From the IMG/VR virus record IMGVR_UViG_2671181050_000002: a stretch of 12,542 nucleotides of DNA, one strand, 5' to 3'. The notes below the pieces were generated by a model. The model worked only from the letters and a program-made list of their open reading frames with translations. It ran no database searches and was not told the DNA's origin. The position numbers and the translations under genes were made by a program. Each line of letters opens with the position of its first letter. The stretch's first letter is position 1. Below, in pieces: positions 1 through 12,439 of this stretch. The DNA comes from a virus. Lineage: Duplodnaviria; Heunggongvirae; Uroviricota; Caudoviricetes.

Positions 1-101
1 AGGCGGAATATATGCGTCACCTTCACCAATAAATTCATTAGTTCCGGCCAGCAGATTATAAATTTTTATGGTCCGTGCTTGTTCACTCATTCTGAATGCC
101 A
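1..101 (-). CDS. tfa: Tail fibre assembly protein Tfa, 5' end only (gene continues beyond window start)
   Basis: Minus-strand translation from ATG at 101-99 gives [34 protein letters not shown], matching the lambda Tfa N-terminus as recalled; the ATG overlaps the upstream stop (TAATG). Confidence 0.8.
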
Positions 102-2198
102 TTATGCAAGCCTCACAATATAGTTAAATGCGATGTTTTTGACGGTGTTTTCCGCGTTACCCGCAGCGTTAACGGTGATGGTGTGTCCATGTGAGCCAAT
201 CGCAACGGAGTGCGTATGAGCACCAATACCGACAGTATGTGCATGTGCGCCTGCGCTTGCAGCAGTGCCGGACAGCGAGTGGGTATGAGCACCATCTGAT
301 GATGTCTTCCCTGCATTACGAGTCTGGCCACTACCGCTTGTTGTGCTCATAATCCCCGCGCTTGGATTTGAAATCGCGGTATAACCATTAGGGAAAATGC
401 TCGTGTTCGTGCCACCAAATGCACCGGAACTCTTGTGTTGGTGCGCGCCGGCACTATTTGCGGTCCCGCTAATACTATGGGTATGCGCCCCGGTGTTATT
501 CGTGGATTTGGTTCCGTAATCAAACGACGATGTGGTTTTCGTCCCCAAATCCGTACTGGATGCGCTGGCGCTGTGGGTGTGCGATTTAATGCCGTCCTGT
601 TCCTGAGACAATACGGCGCGACCACTGGCAGGTTTGCCCTTAATCGTCCAGCCACGCATATCAGGGATCACGCCTGACGGATAAGCGGCTGCAAGTTTCG
701 GGTATGCAGATTTGTCAAAAGTCTGCCCCTGCATCAGGGCATAACCAGACGGAACGGTATCTGATGGCCACGGGATTGGTGCGCCGACTGGGTAGCTTTC
801 TGGTGGAAGATTTTTCGAGGTATAAACTTCTGCCCAGTCTTCCTCAAAACCATAGCCATCTCTTGAGGAACGGTAGAACAGACCTCCATTTCTGTAATGT
901 GCCTTCACCCCCTTCACCACCTTCGGCGTGTCCCAGCGCGCCAGCACCTGATATTCCCCGCTGTCTGCGGTGACTTCGGCAGTCAGGTGCTGCACCGCTG
1001 GCGGCGTGACATCATTCACCGTGCCGCTCTGGTCGCCGTCAAAGTGCGCCCCGTTATCCACGATGGCTTCTTTTTCCGGTACATGCTGCACGGCAGTGAT
1101 GGCATACGTGCCGTCATCGTTCTCACGGATACTCACACAGCGGAACAGGCGCTGACGCAACGTCGGCAACTTCAGCCCCCACACACTGTATTCTGCAACG
1201 CCGTCAGGAACCCGGTTCACTTTCACCTTAAGTCCGTCGGTGACGGACTGAACCTCCACGCTGACCGGACTCCCCTGCCCGTCAACCAGGCTTATCAGCG
1301 TGGTGCCGGAAGATGGCAGCGTGATTTCACGGTCGAGCGTCAGCGTCCGGGTCTGGCTGTTCACCGCCAGCACGCGACCACCGGTGCTGATACCGGCATA
1401 GTCATCATCGCAGATTTCAATGACATCGCCCGGTACATGGCGAAGCCCTTCAGCACCCACGCTGAAATCCACGGTCTGCGTCTCCAGCAGTTCCGTTTTA
1501 ATCAGCCACAGCCCGGCGCGGTGTGCCTGCCCCCGGCTGGTACAGCCAAAGGCATCCATCTTCGTGACATTACGACCGTAACGGGCAATGGCCTGCGTAT
1601 CTTCAACAAGCTCTGTCGCCGTCTCCCAGCCGTTGTTCGGGTCAATCCAGTTCACCTCAACGGCATTATGGCGGTCCTTCAGGGCGCTGAAGCTGTAGCG
1701 GAACGGCGCGCCATCATCCGGCATCACCACATTACTGCGGTTATAGGTCCACACCTTATCTGATGGTCGGTCCTGCACGAACGTCAGCGTCTGCCCGTTC
1801 CATACCGGCATACAGCGCATCGCCGAGCAGAAATCACTGAGCACATCCCACGCCTTACGCTGTGTGGTCAGCCAGGCATTACAGGTGATGCGCGGCTCCG
1901 TGCCGCCAAAACCATTCGGTACCAACTGGTCGCAGTACTGGCCGATGACATACAGCGTCCATTTATCCACATCTGCTGCACCAAGACGTTTCCCCATGCC
2001 GTAGCGCGGATGGGTCAGCATATCCCACAGACACCAGGCCATGTTGTTGCTGTATGCTGGCTTAAACGTTCCATCCCAGATACCGCTGTATTGCCGCGTC
2101 TGCGGGTTATAGTTCGACGGCACCTGCAGAATGCGCCCGCGCAGATGATAATTACGGCTCACCTGCTGGCTGCCGAACTGCTCCGAGTCCACCTGCAC
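102..2198 (-). pseudogene. Chimeric tail-fibre remnant: central part of host-specificity protein J (ORF aa 1-431) fused in frame to the C-terminal ~265 aa of side tail fibre Stf (GAHTHS His-box repeats, ends [11 protein letters not shown])
   Basis: 698-aa ORF from the six-frame track. Its N-terminal part ([41 protein letters not shown] ... [12 protein letters not shown]) matches the middle of lambda J as recalled; after residue ~431 it switches to Stf-like C-terminal sequence. The first codon is GTG in the middle of J sequence with no ribosome-binding site, and the upstream A fragment is in another frame. Confidence 0.7.
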
Positions 2199-3088
2199 GC
2201 CGACCAGTGCCGTGTTCGGGTATCCCCTTTCGTCTTCATCCAGTCTTTGACAATCTGCACCCAGGTGGTGAACGGGCTGTACGCCGTCCAGATGTGAAAG
2301 GTCACACTGTCCGGCGGCTCAATCTCTTCACCGGATGACGAAAACCAGAGAATGCCATCACGGGTCCAGATCCCGGTCTTTTCGCAGATATAACGGGCAT
2401 CAGTAAAGTCCAGCTCCTGCTGGCGGATGACGCAGGCATTATGCTCGCAGAGATAAAACACGCTGGAGGGGTCATCCGGCGTCCATTTGAGGCCAAACGG
2501 CGTCTCTTTGTCGCCAAATTTAAGATACTGCTCCTCCCCGCAGTGCGGGCAGGCAACATGAAAACGCATAAAATGCGGGGATTCACTGGCTGCACGCTCA
2601 ATCTGGCAGGTGCCTCTCACTTTGGGCGTGGAGCCACGGATGGACTTTGGCCAGACCGAGCCTTCAATACGCTTGTCACCCAGGAACGTCGGAGAGCCTT
2701 CCTGTTCAATATCATCATCAAAAGCAGCAAGTTCATCATAACCCGCCACATCCACCGACTTTTCACGGTAGTTTTTTGCCGCTTTACCGCCCAGGCACCA
2801 GAAGCCACGCCCATTAGTGAAACGCTTCATGGTGAGCGTGTTATCCCGGTGCTTTTTGCCATACCACGGGGCCAGCGCCAGCAGCGACGGAATATCACGA
2901 ATAGTCGGCTCAACGTGGGTTTTCATAAAGTTCTCGGCATCACCATCCGTCGGCAACCAGATAAGGGTGTTGCGCTGCTTATGCTCTATGAAGTAGGCAT
3001 AAACACCCAGCAGCATTTTGGAATAACCAACACGGGCAGACTTCACCACATTCACCTCGCGGATGTAGTCACTGCCCATCGCATTCAT
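2159..3088 (-). pseudogene. A: Terminase large subunit (gpA) internal fragment, lacking the N-terminal ~65 aa and the entire C-terminal half
   Basis: Translation (…)[67 protein letters not shown] ... [15 protein letters not shown] matches lambda gpA as recalled, then 19 out-of-frame codons derived from J sequence before the stop at 2159. An internal ATG at 3088 is the only possible start. Confidence 0.8.
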
Positions 3089-3201
3089 GATGGCCCGCTG
3101 CCACCTCCGGAGACGCAAGGGAGTCCCTGAGACTGCCAGCGTTCAATCGTTCGCGGATCCACGTTGAAAATTTCGGCAAGTTTCTTTTTATTAACCTTCA
3201 T
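3085..3201 (-). pseudogene. Terminase small subunit (Nu1-like) N-terminal stub, 38 codons
   Basis: ATG at 3201 gives [38 protein letters not shown], resembling the Nu1 N-terminal HTH region (lambda MEVNKKQLADIFGASIRTIQNWQEQGMP...). The reading frame runs into gpA-derived sequence at about 3097-3100 and stops at 3085. Confidence 0.6.
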
Positions 3202-3225
3202 GAAACAGTCTCACAACAAACACAG

Positions 3226-3337
3226 GGTCCGACATGAAAGTGCCCGAAAATGACTTTTTTAGGCGTTTTCATGTCGGACCTTTTACGGATTCGATATTAG
3301 AAAAAACAAATAGTTATGTTCGAGAAGTACCGACATG
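3226..3337 (-). other. cosB-like region: three R-site-like repeats CATGTCGG(A/T)AC at 3226-3236, 3270-3280 (inverted) and 3327-3337
   Basis: The three 11-mers were read directly; they lie between the cosN-like site and the Nu1 start in the same R3/R2(inverted)/R1 arrangement as lambda cosB, but with a different repeat sequence. Confidence 0.55.
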
Positions 3338-3344
3338 ATTTTCC

Positions 3345-3420
3345 CCGGAAAATTTTCATAAATAGCGAAAACCCGCGCGCCTTCCGCCCCGTAACCTGTC
3401 GGATCGCCGGAAAGGACCCG
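3345..3420 (-). other. cosN/cosQ-like terminase nicking region
   Basis: Minus strand reads CCGACAGGTTACG GGGCGGAAGGCG CGCGGGTTTTCGCTATTTATGAAAATTTTCCGG. The flanks match the lambda cos sequence as recalled (…ACAGGTTACG GGGCGGCGACCT CGCGGGTTTTCGCTATTTATGAAAATTTTCCGG), but the central 6 nt of the 12-nt cohesive-end core (3378-3389) differ. Confidence 0.65.
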
Positions 3421-3588
3421 CAAAATGATAATAATTATCATCTACATGTCACAACGTGCATCTACGCCATCAAACCACGTCAAATAATCAATTATGACGC
3501 AGGTATCGTATTAATTGATCTGCATCAACTTAACGTAAAAACAACTTCAGACAATACAAATCAGCGACACTGAATACGGGGCAACCTC

Positions 3589-3822
3589 ATGTCAACGAAG
3601 AACAGAACCCGCAGAACAACAACCCGCAACATCCGCTTTCCTAACCAAATGATTGAACAAATTAACATCGCTCTTGAGCAAAAAGGGTCCGGGAATTTCT
3701 CAGCCTGGGTCATTGAAGCCTGCCGCCGGAGACTGTGCTCAGAAAAAAGAGTTTCGCCTGAAGCAAACAAAGAAAAGAGTGACATTACTGAATTGCTCAG
3801 AAAACAGGTTAGACCAGATTGA
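3589..3822 (+). CDS. Small basic protein (77 aa) with a ribbon-helix-helix-like N-terminal segment, possibly the DUF3950/YlcI-YnfO family
   Basis: ORF MSTKNRTRRTTTRNIRFPNQMIEQINIALEQKGSGNFSAWVIEACRRRL... has a beta-strand / helix / helix pattern typical of Arc/CopG-type RHH proteins. The corresponding DNA is conserved in the lambda right arm next to cos (recalled). Family name is from memory. Confidence 0.5.
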   Translation: MSTKNRTRRTTTRNIRFPNQMIEQINIALEQKGSGNFSAWVIEACRRRLCSEKRVSPEANKEKSDITELLRKQVRPD

Positions 3823-3879
3823 AGCAATTTAGATAATCGTGCAGACTACGCCCCCTCATATCACATGGAAGGTACTACA

Positions 3880-4290
3880 ATGGCTCAGGTTGCCATTTTT
3901 AAACAAATATTCGATAAAGTGCGAAATAATTTAAACTATCACTGGTTTTATTCTGAACTAAAACGTCACAATGTCTCACATTACATTTACTATTTAGCCA
4001 CAGAGAATATTCATCTTGTTCTTGAAAACGATAATACGGTTTTAATAAAAGGACAGGGTAAGGTTGTAAATGTAAGATTTTCAAAAAATAAATGCCTTAT
4101 AGAAGCCACCTTAAAAGGATTCAAATCAGGAGAGTTATCATTTTACGAATACAGGAAAAATCTTGCTACAGCAGGGGTTTTCAGATGGATTACAAATATC
4201 CACGAAAACAAAAGGTATTACTATACCTTTGATAATTCATTACTCTTTACTGAGAACATTCAGAACACTACACAAATATTTCCGCACTAA
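3880..4290 (+). CDS. AT-rich hypothetical protein (136 aa from MAQVAIF), conserved lambda right-arm ORF
   Basis: ORF intact; a recalled lambda right-arm ORF translates to a related protein (about 75 percent identity by eye) with the reading frame preserved, which suggests a real gene. Followed by hairpin GTCCGGTT-N13-AACCGGAC at 4301-4329. Confidence 0.5.
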
Positions 4291-4878
4291 ATCATAACGT
4301 CCGGTTTCTTCCGTGCCAGAACCGGACTCGCTGGCATGATGAAATATGTGTACCCGGTAACCCCGGTGTGCATCGTTTTTGATTATTCCCGCACACTCGC
4401 GCAGAAGGAGTTCCCCGTCGGGCTACGGTCTCTGTTAATACGGGAATACGGCGACGATACAGCGCATGATGTGTCAGGCTTGAATGCCTTTATCCTTTAA
4501 AAGGGATATCAGTTAAGTTATCCCGTGTAGGGTATAAGCCATTATCAAAGCCACTCTGTAGGGAATGGCTTTTGTGATGGCATCACTTACTCTTTACGCT
4601 GCTATCCCACTCATCCCGGAATTTTGATGGGTTATTGAAACCTTCTGCTGACATAACAACTCCTTCAATGTTTGGCTGAAATTAGGATGTCTTTCCATCA
4701 GTCCGCCACCACAAAGAATCTTTTTTGCCATAAGGCAGGAGGTTCATCTTTCAGTGGCTGCCGGTGTTATTTCCCCACTTACTGGCTTGGGTTGTTTCGT
4801 GGTACTGCCGTTAACTGGTGGCCCAGAATAAATTCCGGTTTCATTATCAAGCCCACCCGTAAATGGGCTTTGTAATGG

Positions 4879-5148
4879 CTACTTCACTTTTGCTTTTGCT
4901 TTTGCTTCCGCTCGCTTACGCCGGCGCTCTTCTTTCCTCTCGGCTTTTGCCATGTCCATGAATGCCTGCATGATCGAGTTCCGCATCATGTAGCTAACAA
5001 AGTGATGATTGACACAGCCGTTGAGGCGCAGCTGCTCGCCAAACTCATCCACCGAGGCCAATGCTTCCATCATGCCCTTCTCGCCTTTCATGAACTCTGA
5101 GAAGTCGCGCCCCGCTCTGGAGGCGCATTCAATGACACGATCACTCAT
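4879..5148 (-). CDS. Hypothetical protein (89 aa) with a Lys/Arg-rich C-terminal tail
   Basis: ORF MSDRVIECASRAGRDFSEF...KAERKEERRRKRAEAKAKAKVK; its ATG overlaps the stop of the upstream KilA-N ORF (ATGA), suggesting translational coupling. No homolog recognised. Confidence 0.4.
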   Translation of the reverse strand: MSDRVIECASRAGRDFSEFMKGEKGMMEALASVDEFGEQLRLNGCVNHHFVSYMMRNSIMQAFMDMAKAERKEERRRKRAEAKAKAKVK

Positions 5149-5641
5149 CCCGGAAGCCCGGGGATCGTAATCTGCAGCTGGTTAGCCAGGGAGTTAATCT
5201 CAGCGACCAACACTGGCTTCGTATAGCGCCATGCTGCCAGCCCTTGTCCGCAGAAGCTCGCCATGTCTTTCTTCTGGTCAAACTCATGACATTTCATGTT
5301 GAGCTGCGCACTTAAGCTGTTGCGATGCTGAAGTTCTCCGGTGAAGTAGTCATCGAGGACTTTATAGGCCGCGTACTTGAACCCGGGGTTTAACCAAGCC
5401 GCATAATCGTAAGCAACAAACTTCCCGCCATATGTTCCACCGTGTACACCGCGCTCAGTAAAAACCACAGATTCGTGGTTTTTCTCCAGCTCGGCTAAGA
5501 ACTCTTTGGTCTGCTTGTTTCGCAGGTAGTGGTAAGGCGATTCAGATTCACTTTTACCACTGGCTTTCCACATACAGTGAGGCAGATCATGCCATCTTCA
5601 CCGATACGAATTGGTTGATTGAAGAGGGTTAATGATTTCAT
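5145..5641 (-). pseudogene. KilA-N domain protein with an apparent -1 frameshift near 5571-5576; intact downstream ORF is 5145..5573 (142 aa)
   Basis: The 142-aa ORF contains KilA-N/APSES-like motifs (SPYHYLRNKQTKEFLAELEK ... GGTYGGKFVAYDYAAWLNPGF). The expected N-terminal strand MKSLTLFNQPIRIGEDGMICLT is encoded from ATG 5641 in a different frame and stops after 47 codons. Confidence 0.5.
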
Positions 5642-5756
5642 AGCGTGTACCTACTCTTTGAAATGAACCTTTGCCGCACAGGAAACCAGCCCACCGAGGC
5701 TCGCCAGCACTAACTGGTATCCTCAAAGGCCCATTCCAAAGGGGCAGGTTCGGTGT

Positions 5757-5810
5757 AAAAAACATGCGTTGCGGTACGCATTTATTGCAAAAAGCCCCGC
5801 ATCGCGAGGC
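5757..5810 (-). terminator. Two tandem intrinsic-terminator-like hairpins downstream of Rz
   Basis: Minus-strand hairpin 5794-5810 (GCCTCGC/GCGGGGC with a G-U pair) followed by TTTTTG, and hairpin 5764-5781 (ATGCGT-N6-ACGCAT) followed by GTTTTTT. Confidence 0.5.
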
Positions 5811-5842
5811 TCATTAAATGGACTTTGTGATTTGCAAAAAAA

Positions 5843-6301
5843 TTATTTCAGGCATTGCGTCCTGATGTATTCCTGCAGGTAGTTAACCTGCGCGGTTATC
5901 TTGTCGATTCCACTTCGGAGACGGTAATAATTGAGTTCAGCATCTGCTGTAAGTCCTGGGCTTTCTCCATCGCCCATGCCGCTGGCTCCGGTCGTTGACT
6001 TTGCACAGGTGGCGGCGACTTGCAGGCGCTTACGCCCAGCAGAAACATCAGCACGGAGACTTTCGATAGTCGCGTTAGCATCAGCAAGCTCCTTTGTGTA
6101 TCTTGCGTCGAGTTCTGCTACATCACGTTGACGCTTCCGCATGTCAGCGATGGTGGCGTTCGCCTTCTCCAGTTCTCTGGCATTTTTGTCGCGCTGGGCT
6201 TTGTAGGTAATGGCGTTATCACGGTAATGATTAACAGCCCATGACAGGCAGACGATGATGCAGATAACCAGAGCGGAGATAATCGCGGTTACTCTGTTCA
6301 T
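5843..6301 (-). CDS. rzpD: Spanin inner-membrane subunit Rz
   Basis: [45 protein letters not shown]... has an N-terminal TM helix and coiled-coil region typical of Rz. The ATG at 6301 overlaps the endolysin stop (ATGA). Confidence 0.8.
5896..6087 (-). CDS. rzoD: Spanin outer-membrane lipoprotein Rz1, nested in the +1 frame of Rz
   Basis: ORF wholly inside Rz in another frame; signal peptide ending in a lipobox-like LLGVSAC followed by a Pro-rich mature part ([16 protein letters not shown]...). Exact start (M1 or M3) uncertain. Confidence 0.65.
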
Positions 6302-6795
6302 TGCTGACCCCACAAACAGATTTCACGCTCAATCTCACGACGAGTCATGAGACCTTTCCATTGCTTACCGCCAGCATATGTCCAGCGACGTAGCTGATCA
6401 CATGCGCCTTTGATATCGCCCTGGTTTATTTTGCGAAGAAGTGTCGATGTTCTGAAATTGCCAGCGCCCACGTTGTAAACGAACGAGTAAAGAGCGCCGC
6501 GCGTTGTTTCCGGTATATCAACTTTTATGTACGGGTTAATTTGTCTGGCGACCGTGGCAAGGTCTTTATTCAGGAGGGCTTTGCATTCTGCTTTGGTATA
6601 CGTTTTACCGAGCATGATGTCTTTTCCTGTATGCCCGTGACATACAGTCCATACACCAACAATATCTTTGTATGGTATGTAGCTGACACCTTCCAGACCA
6701 TCGTTACCACTTGGGCCAGTGATTAACACTGATGCTATAGCAATTGCTCCGCCACCAATAGCAGCAGCAACGGCTTTTCGTAATGATGGAGGCAT
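6298..6795 (-). CDS. rrrD: SAR endolysin (lysozyme R, phage 21 type)
   Basis: 165 aa, N-terminal Gly/Ala-rich signal-anchor-release segment ([20 protein letters not shown]) followed by a T4-lysozyme-like catalytic region; matches the R21/RrrD sequence as recalled. Confidence 0.85.
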
Positions 6796-7010
6796 TATTC
6801 ACCTCTCGCAGCCTTGCGCTTATCTTCTTTAATCTTGAAATAAAGGTTTGTCAGGTACGTCAGCAGGCCAAATACCAGGCTACCCAGCACACCTATTGCT
6901 GCCCACTGTGAGGGCGTGACTTTATCGAGCAGCTGTAAAAACCAGTACCCGGCACTACCTGCTGAGGTGCCATAGGCGACACCCGTTGTTAACTTATCCA
7001 TGGATTTCAT
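6795..7010 (-). CDS. essD: Pinholin S (phage 21 type) with dual-start motif MKSM
   Basis: 71 aa, [71 protein letters not shown], two TM helices; stop overlaps the endolysin start by 1 nt (TGATG); GAGGTG upstream of the start. Confidence 0.85.
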
Positions 7011-7119
7011 AACCCCACCTCGCAGACAAAGCGGGTGTAAATTGAGGGAATACTACGAAACGTAACAGACTCGGAGTCAGTGAATAACTCAGGTATTGGG
7101 TTATCAGCTAATATCGAGA

Positions 7120-7155
7120 CTCAAAAAATGGAAAAACCCGCTCGACGGCGGGTTT
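7120..7155 (-). terminator. Intrinsic terminator upstream of the lysis cassette (tR'-like position)
   Basis: Hairpin AAACCCGC-N6-GCGGGTTT (7134-7155) followed on the minus strand by TTCCATTTTTTGAG. Confidence 0.5.
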
Positions 7156-7583
7156 AAGCTGTGTGACGAAGTAACCACTCTTAACAGCATAACCAATTTT
7201 TTACGTACGTAAACCACTAAATGATATTTGCGAGAATGCTACCGAGTATTGAAAACACCACTACAAATACATAAGCAAATCTCAACAAATAACCAACAAA
7301 TAATTTCCAGCGTTATTTTTAGTCAATTTAAATTGAACCTTCAAATTATAGAGCACTTATAAATAACAGCCATTAATATAAATTGGCTAATAGATTTATT
7401 TTTATTCAGTCAAGAGCCATGAATAGGATTCGATAGAAAAAAGTTCAGATAAAAATAGAGATCTACTTCACAAATCAAACGAGAAACCAAAACTTACATC
7501 TTGAAATATTCACATTGATTAGATGAATATTTATCGCGCAGTGACATCATTTTTTAATAATAGTTCAAAAAAAAGGGCTCACG

Positions 7584-8666
7584 ATGAAAAAATTAACAGT
7601 GGCAATTTCTGCTGTAGCTGCATCAGTACTGATGGCGATGTCTGCTCAGGCAGCTGAAATTTATAATAAAGACAGTAACAAGCTGGATCTGTACGGGAAA
7701 GTTAATGCTAAGCACTACTTCTCCTCTAATGATGCAGATGATGGTGATACTACTTATGCCCGTCTTGGCTTCAAAGGTGAAACCCAAATCAACGATCAAC
7801 TGACTGGTTTCGGTCAGTGGGAATATGAATTCAAAGGCAACCGCGCTGAATCTCAAGGTTCCTCCAAAGATAAAACCCGTCTTGCCTTCGCTGGCCTGAA
7901 ATTCGGTGACTACGGCTCCATCGATTACGGCCGTAACTACGGTGTAGCATACGACATCGGTGCATGGACCGACGTTCTGCCAGAATTCGGTGGCGATACC
8001 TGGACCCAAACAGATGTATTCATGACTGGTCGCACCACAGGTGTTGCAACTTATCGTAACAACGACTTCTTTGGTCTGGTTGATGGCCTGAACTTTGCAG
8101 CTCAGTATCAGGGCAAAAATGACCGAAATGAAGTAACTGAAGCTAATGGCGATGGTTTCGGTTTCTCAACTACTTATGAGTATGAAGGATTCGGCGTGGG
8201 TGCAACCTATGCTAAATCTGATCGCACTAATAATCAGGTTATCTACGGTAACAACGGTCTGAATGCTTCTGGTCAAAATGCTGAAGTATGGGCAGCTGGT
8301 CTGAAATATGATGCGAACAACATCTATCTGGCCACCACCTATTCTGAAACCCAGAACATGACTGTTTTTGGTAATAACCATATTGCCAACAAAGCACAAA
8401 ACTTCGAAGCTGTTGCACAATATCAGTTCGACTTCGGCCTGCGTCCATCCGTTGCTTACCTGCATTCTAAAGGAAAAGACTTGGGTGTTTGGGGTGATCA
8501 GGACCTGGTTGAATATGTTGATGTAGGTGCAACCTATTACTTCAACAAAAATATGTCCACTTTTGTTGACTACAAAATCAACCTGATTGATAAGAGCGAT
8601 TTCACGAAAGCATCTGGCGTTGCTACCGATGATATCGTTGCTGTAGGTATGGTTTACCAGTTCTAA
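7584..8666 (+). CDS. nmpC: Outer-membrane porin, NmpC/OmpD-like (OmpC/OmpF/PhoE family), apparently intact
   Basis: 360 aa; signal peptide [23 protein letters not shown] then AEIYNKD...; C-terminal VGMVYQF typical of general porins; closely matches DLP12 NmpC as recalled. Confidence 0.85.
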
Positions 8667-10550: not shown

Positions 10551-11074
10551 GCCGCCCTCCTGACGCCCTGCCCGATCGCCATCAATGCCGCTTTGGATAC
10601 GGTAGTAAACATCCGTCGAGGACTGATGAACGGTCGCCAAATCAGCAGCATGGAGCCTTTGCTGTTTCCCTTCTTCTCCAGCCCTGTCGATGGTTCGATA
10701 AAATTAATCCGTCCATCAGTGATAATGCGAACTTCGTCGACACTCTCCAGAGCCTTGCTGAACCATCCGACTGACATATCCTCTGGCACAAGCATAACTA
10801 CCGTCTGTCGCTGTTGTATGCACTGCTCAGCGGCTTTTTCCACCCACGGCCTGATATTGCTGTACGGTGGGTTATTCCAGATTGCACCGTGGCTTACCCA
10901 CTCAGAATTGAGCGCGTCGTCGGCCTCAGTTAGCCAGTGAGCACACAGAGCATTTTTGTCGCTCGCTGCCGAATCCAGCCAGAATCCAAACTCAATATCC
11001 AGTGCATCAAAAAGCCAAAGCGGCGTTTGCCAGCAGTCCTTGTCGTGTGCTGGCGTATTTGATTTGATAGTCAT
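10547..11074 (-). CDS. Phage-type orphan DNA N6-adenine methyltransferase (Dam family), 175 aa
   Basis: From [31 protein letters not shown]...; catalytic NPPY motif ([14 protein letters not shown]); ATG overlaps the ninB stop (ATGA). No adjacent restriction endonuclease gene. Confidence 0.75.
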
Positions 11075-11511
11075 GCAGCCCGATCTCCCCATCTCGCTTT
11101 CCACTCCAGAGCCAGTCTCGCTTCGTCTGACCACTTAACGCCACGCTCTGTACCGAATGCCTGTATAAGCTCTAATAGCTCCGCAAATTCGCCTACACGC
11201 ATCCTGCTGGTTGACTGGCCTATTACCACAAAGCCATTCCCGGCAAGGTTAGGAACAACATCCTGCTGCTTTAATGCTGCGGTAAACACACACTTCCAGC
11301 TTTCTGCATCCAGCCAGCGACCATGCCATTCAACCTGACGAGAGACGTCACCTAAGCAGGCCCATAGCTTCCTGTTTTGGTCTAAGCTGCGGTTGCGTTC
11401 CTGAATGGTTACTACGATTGGTTTGGTTGGGTCTGGAAGGATTTGCTGTACTGCGTGAATAGCGTTTTGCTGATGTGCTGGAGATCGAATTTCAAAGGTT
11501 AGTTTTTTCAT
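11071..11511 (-). CDS. ninB: Recombination protein NinB (Orf family)
   Basis: 146 aa from MKKLTFEIRSPAHQQNAIHAVQQILPDPTKPIVVTIQERNRSLDQNRKLWACLGDVSRQVEWHGRWLDAESWKCVF..., matching lambda NinB as recalled; GGGAGAGGGAAG upstream of the ATG at 11511. Confidence 0.85.
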   Translation of the reverse strand: MKKLTFEIRSPAHQQNAIHAVQQILPDPTKPIVVTIQERNRSLDQNRKLWACLGDVSRQVEWHGRWLDAESWKCVFTAALKQQDVVPNLAGNGFVVIGQSTSRMRVGEFAELLELIQAFGTERGVKWSDEARLALEWKARWGDRAA

Positions 11512-11526
11512 GACTTCCCTCTCCCC

Positions 11527-11653: not shown

Positions 11654-12439
11654 ATGAGTACAGCACTCGCAACGCTGGCAGGGAAGCTGGCTGAACGTGT
11701 CGGCATGGATTCTGTCGACCCACAGGAACTGATCACCACTCTTCGCCAGACGGCATTTAAAGGCGATGCCAGCGATGCGCAGTTCATCGCATTGTTGATC
11801 GTCGCCAACCAGTACGGCCTTAATCCGTGGACGAAAGAAATTTACGCCTTCCCTGACAAGCAGAACGGCATCGTTCCGGTGGTGGGCGTTGATGGCTGGT
11901 CCCGTATCATCAATGAAAACCAGCAGTTTGATGGCATGGACTTTGAGCAGGACAATGAATCCTGCACATGCCGGATTTACCGCAAGGACCGTAATCATCC
12001 GATCTGCGTTACCGAGTGGATGGATGAATGCCGCCGCGAACCATTCAAAACCCGCGAAGGCAGAGAAATCACGGGGCCGTGGCAGTCGCATCCCAAACGG
12101 ATGTTACGTCATAAAGCCATGATTCAGTGTGCCCGTCTGGCCTTCGGATTTGCTGGTATCTATGACAAGGATGAAGCCGAGCGCATTGTCGAAAATACTG
12201 CATACACTGCAGAACGTCAGCCAGAACGCGACATCACTCCGGTTAACGATGAAACCATGCAGGAGATTAACACTCTGCTGATCGCCCTGGATAAAACATG
12301 GGATGACGACTTATTGCCGCTCTGTTCCCAGATATTTCGCCGCGACATTCGCGCATCGTCAGAACTGACACAGGCCGAAGCAGTGAAAGCTCTTGGATTC
12401 CTGAAACAGAAAGCCACTGAGCAGAAGGTGGCAGCATGA
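11654..12439 (+). CDS. bet: Single-strand annealing protein Bet (Red beta)
   Basis: 261 aa [84 protein letters not shown]..., essentially the lambda Bet sequence as recalled. Confidence 0.9.

What the first reader, a model, noticed from the sequence alone, without database searches (positions are those of the whole stretch)
102..2198. In-frame J::stf chimera
The 698-aa ORF changes from J-like sequence to Stf-like C-terminal sequence after ...[12 protein letters not shown] (about nt 905) without breaking frame and ends in a TAATG overlap with tfa, as stf does in lambda. This removes the J C-terminal receptor-binding domain, lom and the stf N-terminus. The fusion is in frame (1 in 3 by chance), but it has no start codon or RBS and is out of frame with the upstream A fragment, so expression is doubtful.
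Basis: partly seen in the sequence, partly recalled or inferred. Interest (0 to 1): 0.35.

Follow-up and report, generated by a model that had tools for sequence, protein, structure and literature searches.

The report
Deletion-made J::Stf fusion relic in prophage
The long open reading frame is a leftover of a decayed lambda-like prophage: one deletion happened to join the middle of tail-tip gene J in frame to the end of side-tail-fibre gene stf, which is ordinary prophage erosion and not a new protein.

Summary
A 698-codon ORF on the minus strand (2198..102) consists of lambda J residues ~212/220-650 followed by the last 250 residues of a side tail fibre (Stf), and it ends in a TAATG overlap with tfa.

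At nucleotide level the joint is a 3-nt microhomology (TGA, window 905-907). It cuts the Ig_J domain at 43 of 104 profile positions and removes about 4.65 kb (J C-terminus, lom, stf N-terminus) compared with an intact relative.

Three more deletions lie in the same window: Nu1'::A', A'::J' (out of frame) and loss of the immunity/replication region. No head or tail-shaft genes remain. The element sits next to bioA, at att-lambda.

The same two junctions occur in at least 15 E. coli and gut-metagenome contigs and in one further-eroded derivative. None of 5,426 complete E. coli genomes and none of 50,697 phage genomes has this junction or an unbroken full-length homolog.

J::stf deletions recur in E. 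coli. Six other junctions found by DNA search are all out of frame, so this in-frame case fits chance.

Divergence between the two lineages is concentrated in the J'/stf' segment and consists of polymorphisms shared with other J alleles, which points to gene conversion. Verdict: a fusion pseudogene of low interest.

The parts
1..102 (-). 5' end of tfa, the tail fibre assembly chaperone. 34 codons ([34 protein letters not shown]) are present before the window edge cuts the gene. Its ATG at 102..100 overlaps the ORF's stop codon as TAATG.
   Evidence: In the near-identical contigs L004-L006 the gene is complete: 193 aa with Caudo_TAP domains.
102..2198 (-). The chimeric J'::stf' ORF. It has 698 codons counted from GTG 2198, and the stop TAA is at 104..102.
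   Evidence: P0001 is an identical protein found on 15 contigs.
102..907 (-). The stf-derived part, equal to Stf residues ~826-1075. It carries the tail-collar domain and the gp37-type HxH receptor-binding tip.
   Evidence: blastn against L003 stf. Pfam Collar at ORF residues 472-519. PDB 2XGF, E 4e-84.
905..907 (-). The J::stf deletion joint. The 3 nt TGA (TCA on the + strand) are shared by both parent sequences.
   Evidence: Three-way alignment of the window with intact J and intact stf.
905..2222 (-). The J-derived part, J nt 634-1951 (residues ~212-650). It holds the hub domain (Phage-tail_3) and the first 43 of 104 profile positions of the Ig_J domain. It lacks the N-terminal FNIII-A domain, the fibre and the receptor-binding domain.
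2220..2222 (-). The A'::J' deletion joint, a shared TAC. The two parts are out of frame here.
2159..3088 (-). The terminase large-subunit fragment A'. It is A-derived from about 3100 down to 2220, then reads 20 out-of-frame codons of J. Its stop TGA at 2161..2159 overlaps an in-frame J GTG at 2162..2160, forming GTGA.
   Evidence: (GpA_ATPase, E 5.5e-46).
3085..3201 (-). The Nu1/NohA-type terminase small-subunit stub, 38 codons. It is joined out of frame to codon ~55 of A.

Best explanation
The ORF is a fusion pseudogene in a heavily eroded lambdoid prophage at att-lambda, next to ybhB-bioA.

Shown: an illegitimate, microhomology-mediated deletion of about 4.65 kb joined codon 650 of J to codon 826 of stf. 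It removed the J fibre and receptor-binding domain, lom and the Stf N-terminus. The reading frames happened to match.

Shown: further deletions followed or accompanied it. A codon ~352 was joined to J codon ~212. The Nu1 stub was joined to A. All head and tail-shaft genes were lost, and so was the immunity/replication region.

Inferred: the product cannot be a virion component. It lacks the J N-terminus and the Stf N-terminus, its joint breaks an Ig-like domain, and no tail exists to attach to. It is probably not translated efficiently, because it has only GTG start candidates without a Shine-Dalgarno sequence. Transcription is also doubtful, because the pR region that normally drives the antiterminator Q is deleted.

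Partly shown: what the DNA does do is take part in homologous exchange with other J/stf copies. Since the junctions formed, the J'/stf' segment has been overwritten by patches from other alleles. It could in turn donate J, stf-tip and tfa sequence to infecting lambdoid phages.
For: 1. Parent genes are collinear in intact relatives, and the joints show 3-nt microhomology.

2. Pfam finds only profile positions 1-43 of 104 of Ig_J. It finds no FNIII-A_GpJ, Ig_J_second, Phage_Tail_Tip or Ig_GpJ_C, and no phage_tail_N from Stf.

3. The context in the window and in contigs L004-L007, which are 99.9-100% identical to it, runs bet | ninB ... Q, porin, S, R, Rz, kilA-N, ydfO, ynfO, Nu1', A', J'::stf', tfa, then an AraC-like gene, IS fragments and ybhB-bioABFCD. 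No portal, capsid, V, G, T, H, M, L, K or I genes are present.

4. No phage genome has an unbroken homolog, and no complete E. coli genome has this junction.

5. J::stf deletions are recurrent. At least 13 other in-frame junctions appear among the protein hits. Six junctions found by DNA search are all out of frame. These include the Qin prophage locus (tfaQ-pinQ-ydfK-ydfJ) of strain B-1109, which reads Nu1'::J'::stf'.

6. L012 carries both junction strings unchanged plus a further Rz::A deletion. Window and L012 differ at 2.9% inside the chimeric ORF, against 2 of 709 nt in A' and 0 of 762 nt in R/Rz. The differing codons split 36 synonymous to 11 nonsynonymous. At 35 and 40 of the 41 differing J sites respectively, the variant base is shared with other J alleles. 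This is the signature of imported patches.

7. Of the six J changes private to the window lineage, 4 are nonsynonymous and 2 synonymous. That fits relaxed constraint, but the sample is small.

8. Published precedent exists. Lambda recombines with Qin and Rac stf-tfa remnants at about 2e-6 (PMC3945230). Lambda J recombined with the J relic ECB_00512 of REL606 and phage fitness doubled (bioRxiv 10.1101/2020.11.02.365361).
Against: - The frame has stayed open over 698 codons in both lineages (window type and L012). That is weak evidence, because the lineages are young (flank divergence about 0.1%) and imported patches come from functional genes.
- Downstream tfa is intact and keeps the native TAATG coupling.
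- A GTGA stop/start overlap with the A' fragment could in principle permit reinitiation.
- One 5-kb metagenome contig (L008) shows the same J::stf junction behind a full-length J N-terminus and the M, L, K and I genes. If that contig is real, the fusion once sat in an otherwise intact tail-tip module.
- No expression data could be consulted.
Confidence: 0.85

Rival explanations
1. It is, or descends from, a functional hybrid central tail fibre. In this reading a lambdoid phage replaced the J fibre and receptor-binding domain with the gp37-type Stf tip, folded by Tfa, so that the tail tip targets the Stf receptor.
For: - L008 / P0005 (917 aa) has a full J N-terminus and the same junction, directly after M, L, K and I.
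- The Stf tip and tfa are complete.
- Many J-Stf hybrids exist in databases.
Against: - The window copy lacks J residues 1-211 and has no tail genes.
- The joint cuts the Ig_J domain and shows only 3-nt microhomology.
- No phage genome among 50,697 covers 80% or more of the ORF.
- L008 is a single 5-kb MEGAHIT contig. It is 100% identical to the window up to position 1451 and then 4.4% divergent. That pattern is what a graph mis-join between the relic and a co-resident intact J would give.
- Every other hybrid whose context was examined lies in an eroded prophage.
Confidence: 0.04
2. It is a domesticated, expressed host protein with a non-virion role, for example a cytoplasmic or released receptor-binding module made with Tfa.
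For: - The frame is open in all carriers.
- tfa is intact with its native overlap.
- A GTGA overlap with the A' stop codon exists.
- Substitutions between the two lineages are mostly synonymous.
Against: - The synonymous excess is explained by imported shared polymorphisms confined to the J'/stf' segment.
- Changes private to the window lineage are mostly nonsynonymous.
- There is no ATG or Shine-Dalgarno sequence, and promoter-like sites are not enriched.
- No other export or virion-assembly genes accompany the ORF in this relic.
- The ORF is absent from all 5,426 complete E. coli genomes, so it is confined to a narrow lineage.
Confidence: 0.05
3. It is an assembly artefact: a chimeric contig that joins J and stf from different prophages.
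For: J and stf are multi-copy in E. coli, and short-read contigs often break here. P0027, for example, is a partial protein on a 1.4-kb contig.
Against: - Both junction strings are identical in L004-L007 and L012, which come from independent samples and assemblers.
- 15 contigs carry the identical protein, the longest 1.34 Mb.
- A 3-nt overlap cannot be bridged by a k-mer assembler.
Confidence: 0.01

Closest known systems
Tail-gene remnants of the Qin cryptic prophage of E. coli (nohA/nohQ - J fragment - stfQ - tfaQ - pinQ), as seen in strain B-1109
   Same: It has the same architecture of decay. A Nu1 stub of about 34 codons is joined to an internal J fragment, which is joined to the 3' part of stf and followed by an intact tfa. 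In other strains the Qin locus even carries an in-frame J(1-598)::stf protein of 991 aa (P0011).
   Different: - The breakpoints differ.
- The J::stf joint in the B-1109 Qin copy is out of frame.
- Qin sits at the ydfJ/ydfK locus and has pinQ next to tfa. The present relic sits next to bioA and retains an A fragment.
DLP12 cryptic prophage of E. coli K-12 (rusA-ylcG-quuD-nmpC-essD-rrrD-rzpD ... nohD-aaaD-tfaD). The K-12 gene order is recalled from memory.
   Same: The late-region backbone is the same. PGAP names the homologous genes rusA, ylcG, quuD, porin, essD, rrrD and rzpD in close relatives. In DLP12 a terminase fragment is likewise followed by tail-fibre remnants.
   Different: DLP12 lies at argU and its A fragment abuts tfaD directly. 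Here J' and stf' pieces remain between A' and tfa. This comparison with K-12 DLP12 was not tested here.
Lambda gpJ (tip attachment protein; PDB 8iyk, 8k35, 9e7m)
   Same: ORF residues 1-432 match gpJ 220-651 at about 97% identity.
   Different: It lacks gpJ 1-219 and 652-1132, which include the rest of Ig_J, Ig_J_second, the tail tip fibre and the LamB-binding C-terminal domain.
Lambda Stf/Tfa and the T4 gp37 receptor-binding tip (PDB 2XGF)
   Same: It has the collar domain plus the HxH needle/tip, E 4e-84 against 2XGF. The tfa chaperone gene lies downstream with a TAATG overlap.
   Different: It lacks the Stf N-terminal tail-attachment domain (PF08400) and the long shaft, about 825 residues in all.
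ECB_00512, the J relic of E. coli B REL606 that recombined with lambda J (Borin et al., bioRxiv 10.1101/2020.11.02.365361)
   Same: It is a chromosomal J fragment homologous to lambda J that can exchange sequence with J genes. The present relic shows imported J patches.
   Different: Donation to an infecting phage has not been shown for this relic. The J segment kept here (nt 634-1951) only partly overlaps the exchanged region in that study (nt 1545-2796).

Membership tests
Functional TipJ / lambda gpJ tail tip protein | N-terminal FNIII-A_GpJ domain and a complete hub | tested here: not met
   Pfam finds PF24801 in the intact J (residues 86-207) but not in the ORF. The ORF starts at gpJ residue ~220.
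Functional TipJ / lambda gpJ tail tip protein | Ig_J, Ig_J_second, the tail-tip fibre and the C-terminal receptor-binding domain | tested here: not met
   Only positions 1-43 of 104 of PF24421 are present. PF24489, PF09327 and PF12421 are absent.
Functional TipJ / lambda gpJ tail tip protein | Encoded after tail genes H-M-L-K-I in a tail module | tested here: not met
   The gene directly upstream is a truncated terminase A fragment. No tail genes occur in the window or in the 22-kb contig L004.
Side tail fibre (lambda Stf / gp37-type) | N-terminal tail-attachment domain (phage_tail_N, PF08400) and shaft | tested here: not met
   It is present in the intact Stf (residues 1-134) and absent from the ORF.
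Side tail fibre (lambda Stf / gp37-type) | Collar domain plus gp37-like HxH receptor-binding tip | tested here: met
   PF07484 at residues 472-519. 2XGF matches residues 467-698, E 4e-84.
Side tail fibre (lambda Stf / gp37-type) | tfa chaperone gene immediately downstream, overlapping the stop codon | tested here: met
   TAATG at window 104..100. Tfa is 193 aa in L004.
Deletion-derived fusion pseudogene of a defective prophage | Parent genes are collinear on one strand in intact relatives, with the intervening DNA missing | tested here: met
   L003 has J-lom-stf-tfa. Its positions 2857..7510 have no counterpart in the window.
Deletion-derived fusion pseudogene of a defective prophage | The joint has the signature of illegitimate recombination and ignores domain boundaries | tested here: met
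   3-nt microhomology. The joint lies inside Ig_J.
Deletion-derived fusion pseudogene of a defective prophage | The element lacks genes essential for a phage life cycle | tested here: met
   Head genes, tail-shaft genes, Nu1, most of A, and the immunity/replication region are missing.
Deletion-derived fusion pseudogene of a defective prophage | Relaxed selective constraint on the fused frame | tested here: inconclusive
   Private changes are 4 nonsynonymous to 2 synonymous, which is too few to decide. The bulk of the divergence is imported by gene conversion.
Deletion-derived fusion pseudogene of a defective prophage | No functional product made | not testable with these tools
   No transcript or peptide data were available. 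The only sequence-level indications are the lack of an ATG or Shine-Dalgarno sequence and the absence of promoter enrichment.

The most novel reading that the evidence does not exclude
The J(…650)::Stf(826…) junction first arose in a phage with an intact tail-tip module, as contig L008 suggests. There it produced a working hybrid central fibre that carries a gp37-type tip folded by Tfa. Alternatively, the present truncated ORF is translated by GTGA reinitiation after A' and, together with Tfa, yields a trimeric receptor-binding module that the host uses. The repeated use of identical breakpoints in independent J::Stf fusions would then reflect selection or a recombination hotspot and not chance.
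Probability: 0.04. Interest if true: 0.55.

Novelty: new member of a known kind. Interest (0 to 1): 0.1.

Why it matters
It matters little on its own. It is a clean, well-resolved example of stepwise prophage erosion, with four microhomology- or short-overlap deletions in 12.5 kb.

It also shows a relic tail-gene segment being overwritten by gene conversion from other J alleles. This supports the view that such relics are exchange partners for lambdoid phages, as PMC3945230 and bioRxiv 10.1101/2020.11.02.365361 reported.

The practical value is a caution for annotation. Public databases label this ORF 'Host specificity protein J of prophage', although it is a J/Stf fusion remnant.

Tried and rejected
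1. An exact-match scan of 185,579 species-representative genomes for the 28-nt junction string found nothing. The junction is confined to a sub-lineage of E. coli that the representatives do not cover.

2. I asked whether in-frame J::stf fusions are favoured. This was rejected. The many in-frame hybrids among the protein hits reflect ascertainment bias, since a protein search can only see in-frame fusions. Six junctions sampled by DNA are all out of frame.

3. I asked whether the excess of synonymous differences between the window and L012 shows purifying selection on the chimera. This was rejected. The divergence is confined to the J'/stf' segment (2.9%, against about 0.1% in the flanks) and consists of polymorphisms shared with other J alleles.

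4. The antisense ORFs 897..1763(+) and 2441..3130(+) have no Pfam family and are treated as spurious.

5. An Rfam scan of the whole window gave no match at gathering thresholds.

6. The promoter and terminator scan of 1..4000 gave counts no higher than in shuffled sequence, and nothing upstream of the ORF.

7. I considered using L008 as proof of a functional ancestor. It is not accepted as proof, because its mosaic identity pattern is equally what a metagenome mis-assembly would give.

Full report
**1. What is in the sequence.**

The ORF listing gives a 698-codon ORF on the minus strand, 2198..102, starting at a GTG. Its translation begins ...[22 protein letters not shown], which is lambda J, and ends ...[18 protein letters not shown], which is a side tail fibre.

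- A PDB sequence search puts ORF residues 1-432 on lambda gpJ residues 220-651 (8iyk, E 5e-293). It puts residues 467-698 on the T4 gp37 receptor-binding tip (2XGF, E 4e-84).
- Pfam finds Phage-tail_3 at residues 111-279. It finds only profile positions 1-43 of 104 of Ig_J at residues 391-433. It then finds the tail Collar domain at 472-519.
- The stop TAA (104..102) overlaps the ATG (102..100) of tfa. The first 34 codons of tfa run off the left edge of the window.

**2. Where the breakpoints are.**

The reference is a more complete prophage of E. coli LWY6 (L003). It carries tfa, stf (1075 aa), lom and J (1132 aa) in a row on one strand.

- Window 905..2222 aligns with J nt 634-1951.
- Window 460..907 and 1..293 align with the 3' end of stf.

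A three-way alignment shows J ...GGTGGTGAAGGGCGTGA|GCTTT and stf ...CTTGCAGATGA|AGGCACAT joined as ...GGGGGTGAAGGCACAT. The two parents share only TGA (window 905-907). Both genes are at codon position 1 at window 905, so the fusion is in frame. About 4.65 kb is missing, namely L003 2857..7510, which covers the J C-terminus, lom and the stf N-terminus.

The upstream joint is of the same type. A ...AAAGGGGATAC|GGGAAAACG and J ...CAGTGCTAC|CCGAACACGG share TAC (window 2220-2222). There the frames differ. The A' reading frame runs 20 codons into J and stops at TGA 2161..2159.

**3. The surroundings show a wreck, not a phage.**

- Upstream of A' lies a 38-codon Nu1/NohA stub (3201..3085). It is joined out of frame to about codon 55 of A.
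- At window ~11580, bet directly abuts the ninB side. L003 19866..25555, which holds gam-kil-cIII, the repressor and cro region, cII, O, P and ren, is missing.
- Contigs that are 99.9-100% identical to the window (L004-L007) extend the picture to the left. They show a complete tfa (193 aa), an AraC-type gene, IS fragments and then ybhB and bioA-bioB-bioF-bioC-bioD. That is the att-lambda neighbourhood.
- No portal, capsid, tail tube, tape measure or M/L/K/I genes are present.
- The late region that remains is ninB, dam, ninX, rusA, ylcG, Q, a porin gene, S, R, Rz, kilA-N, ydfO and ynfO. This is DLP12/Qin-like according to the PGAP names in relatives.

**4. Is it a natural protein?**

- tblastn against 50,697 phage records finds none that covers 80% or more of the ORF. 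The best hits cover residues 1-436, which is J only.
- None of 5,426 complete E. coli genomes spans the junction. No species-representative genome has the 28-nt junction string.
- The large protein collection does hold the identical 698-aa protein. P0001 is on 15 contigs read, the longest 1.34 Mb, and NCBI names it 'Host specificity protein J of prophage'. It also holds single-residue variants P0002-P0004.
- P0006 (702 aa, contig L012) has both junction strings unchanged. It has lost a further 3.2 kb (window ~2908-6065), which fuses Rz to A, and it carries a different variable block in the stf tip.

The chimera is therefore real and inherited, but confined to a narrow lineage.

**5. J::stf deletions are common and frame-neutral.**

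The protein hits include at least 13 other J-Stf hybrids with different joints. Examples are J598|SARKVNGK, J773|TDTYADADGG, J715|PQQAGISE, J824|YEVYNNGYP, J575|TLRPFAID, J561|TALTDNTQ, J600|TVPSGYAL and J496|KAHYRNGG.

Every hybrid whose contig I examined lies in an eroded prophage:
- P0011 lies in the Qin locus, with nohA, A' and I'.
- P0025 lies beside S::Z and V::H fusions.
- P0008 lies behind a truncated tape-measure gene.
- P0007 lies in Qin, with a U-to-I gap.

A protein search can only see in-frame fusions, so I also sampled junctions by DNA. The best multi-piece hits of the ORF in complete genomes gave six distinct J::stf junctions: JX2, B-1109 (whose Qin locus reads Nu1'::J'::stf'), 17MR471, H3, TB06053 and Z142-3. 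In all six, J and stf are in different frames. The in-frame state of the present ORF is therefore what chance gives.

**6. Selection or gene conversion?**

- Window and L012 share both deletion joints, so their differences arose after the joints formed.
- The differences are strikingly uneven. There are 51 in the chimeric ORF between 466 and 2198 (2.9%), 2 in 709 nt of A', and 0 in 762 nt of R/Rz.
- Of the 47 differing codons, 36 are synonymous and 11 nonsynonymous. Several involve two changes in one codon.
- In an alignment with ten other J alleles, the window's base is shared with others at 35 of the 41 differing J sites. L012's base is shared at 40 of 41.
- This is the pattern of patches imported from other, functional J genes. 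It is not the pattern of in-situ mutation filtered by selection on the chimera.
- The six J changes private to the window lineage are 4 nonsynonymous and 2 synonymous. That fits relaxed constraint, on a very small sample.

**7. Expression.**

- No ATG occurs before codon 53, and no Shine-Dalgarno-like motif precedes GTG 2198, GTG 2192, GTG 2162 or that ATG.
- The promoter scan shows nothing above shuffled expectation and no site upstream of the ORF.
- The gene for the late antiterminator Q is intact, but the pR region that normally drives it has been deleted. Late transcription is therefore doubtful; this is inference.
- One caveat is that the A' stop and an in-frame J GTG overlap as GTGA (2162..2159). 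That arrangement can support termination-reinitiation. It is native J sequence, though, so the overlap is fortuitous.

**8. The one observation that points the other way.**

Contig L008 (5,072 bp, MEGAHIT, one sample) encodes M, L, K, I and a 917-aa J with a full N-terminus and the same junction. It is 100% identical to the window from 76 to 1451. It then carries all 34 of its mismatches between 1452 and 2222. Two readings fit this:
- It is a true recombinant or ancestor.
- It is an assembly path that switches between the relic and a co-resident intact J.

I cannot decide between them. For that reason the functional-hybrid rival keeps a few percent.

**9. Comparison with what is known.**

The closest parallels are the Qin remnants of E. 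coli (a Nu1 stub, a J fragment, an stfQ-type stf 3' part, then tfaQ) and, from memory, DLP12's nohD-aaaD-tfaD.

- The ORF fails the membership tests for a functional gpJ. It has no FNIII-A domain, no fibre or receptor-binding domain, and no tail module.
- It fails the tests for a functional Stf, because it has no N-terminal attachment domain. It does keep a complete gp37-type tip and its chaperone gene.
- It meets every testable criterion of a deletion-derived fusion pseudogene.

Published work shows that such relics exchange DNA with lambda. Lambda recombines with the Qin and Rac stf-tfa regions at about 2e-6 per phage (PMC3945230). The J relic ECB_00512 of REL606 donated about 1.3 kb to lambda J and doubled its fitness (bioRxiv 10.1101/2020.11.02.365361).

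**10. Verdict.**

The feature is real and was correctly read by the first stage. It is an ordinary product of prophage decay: a new instance of a known kind, of low interest. The only loose ends are contig L008 and the repeated use of some breakpoints among independent J::Stf fusions.

Noticed in passing
window 3085-3201 (minus strand), joint near 3100: A 38-codon Nu1/NohA-type terminase small-subunit stub ([38 protein letters not shown]) is joined out of frame to about codon 55 of terminase A. The Qin copy in L002 is also truncated after ...GGG of its lambda-type Nu1.
   Followed up: partly
window ~11580 (between ninB 11072..11512 minus and bet 11654..12439 plus): The whole immunity/replication region is deleted. 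This covers gam, kil, cIII, the repressor, cro, cII, O, P and ren, which is 5.7 kb in L003 (19866..25555). bet now faces ninB across about 140 nt.
   Followed up: partly
window 2159-2162 (minus strand): The stop TGA of the A' fragment overlaps an in-frame GTG of the J'::stf' ORF, forming GTGA. This is a possible termination-reinitiation site that was created by accident by the A::J deletion.
   Followed up: no
L013 7486-7489 compared with window 905-907; also proteins P0007/P0036, P0008/P0017 and P0022/P0033: Independent J::Stf fusions re-use breakpoints. The window (J650) and L013 (J496) both join to stf at the same ATG|AAG (K826) with TG(A) microhomology. J ends ...EAIVD and ...ALYWI, and stf start TALTDNTQ, each recur with different partners. 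This is more coincidence than uniform random breakage predicts, and it is unexplained.
   Followed up: partly
L013 565-3924; L012 527-1504; protein P0023: Other eroded prophages carry several in-frame gene fusions side by side. L013 has holin::Z and V::H together with J::stf. L012 has Rz::A. P0023 is an in-frame A::J::Stf triple fusion of 1169 aa.
   Followed up: no
L008 (5,072-bp metagenome contig), equivalent to window 76-2222: The contig has M, L, K, I and a full-length J N-terminus joined to the same J::stf junction. It is 100% identical to the window up to 1451 and then 4.4% divergent. It is either a real recombinant or ancestor, or an assembly mis-join.
   Followed up: partly
window 466-2198 versus L012: Divergence between two descendants of the same relic is about 20-fold higher inside J'/stf' (2.9%) than in the flanking A' and R/Rz (about 0.1%). 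It is made of polymorphisms shared with other J alleles. The stf tip variable block (window ~308-465) is replaced outright. This indicates gene conversion into a dead gene.
   Followed up: yes
window 7584-8666 (plus strand): An intact 360-aa porin gene (Porin_1/Porin_4) sits between Q and the holin gene on the opposite strand. This is the position where relatives carry genes annotated as porin or ompC.
   Followed up: no
window 4879-5642 (minus strand): A KilA-N/ORF11CD3-domain gene (165 aa) and an 89-aa ORF without a family lie between Rz and ydfO. They are absent from the JX2 relative, which has iss (bor-like) there instead.
   Followed up: no
protein P0001 in public databases: NCBI names the chimeric ORF 'Host specificity protein J of prophage'. 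That name hides the fact that 38% of it is Stf tip and that it is a truncated fusion.
   Followed up: no
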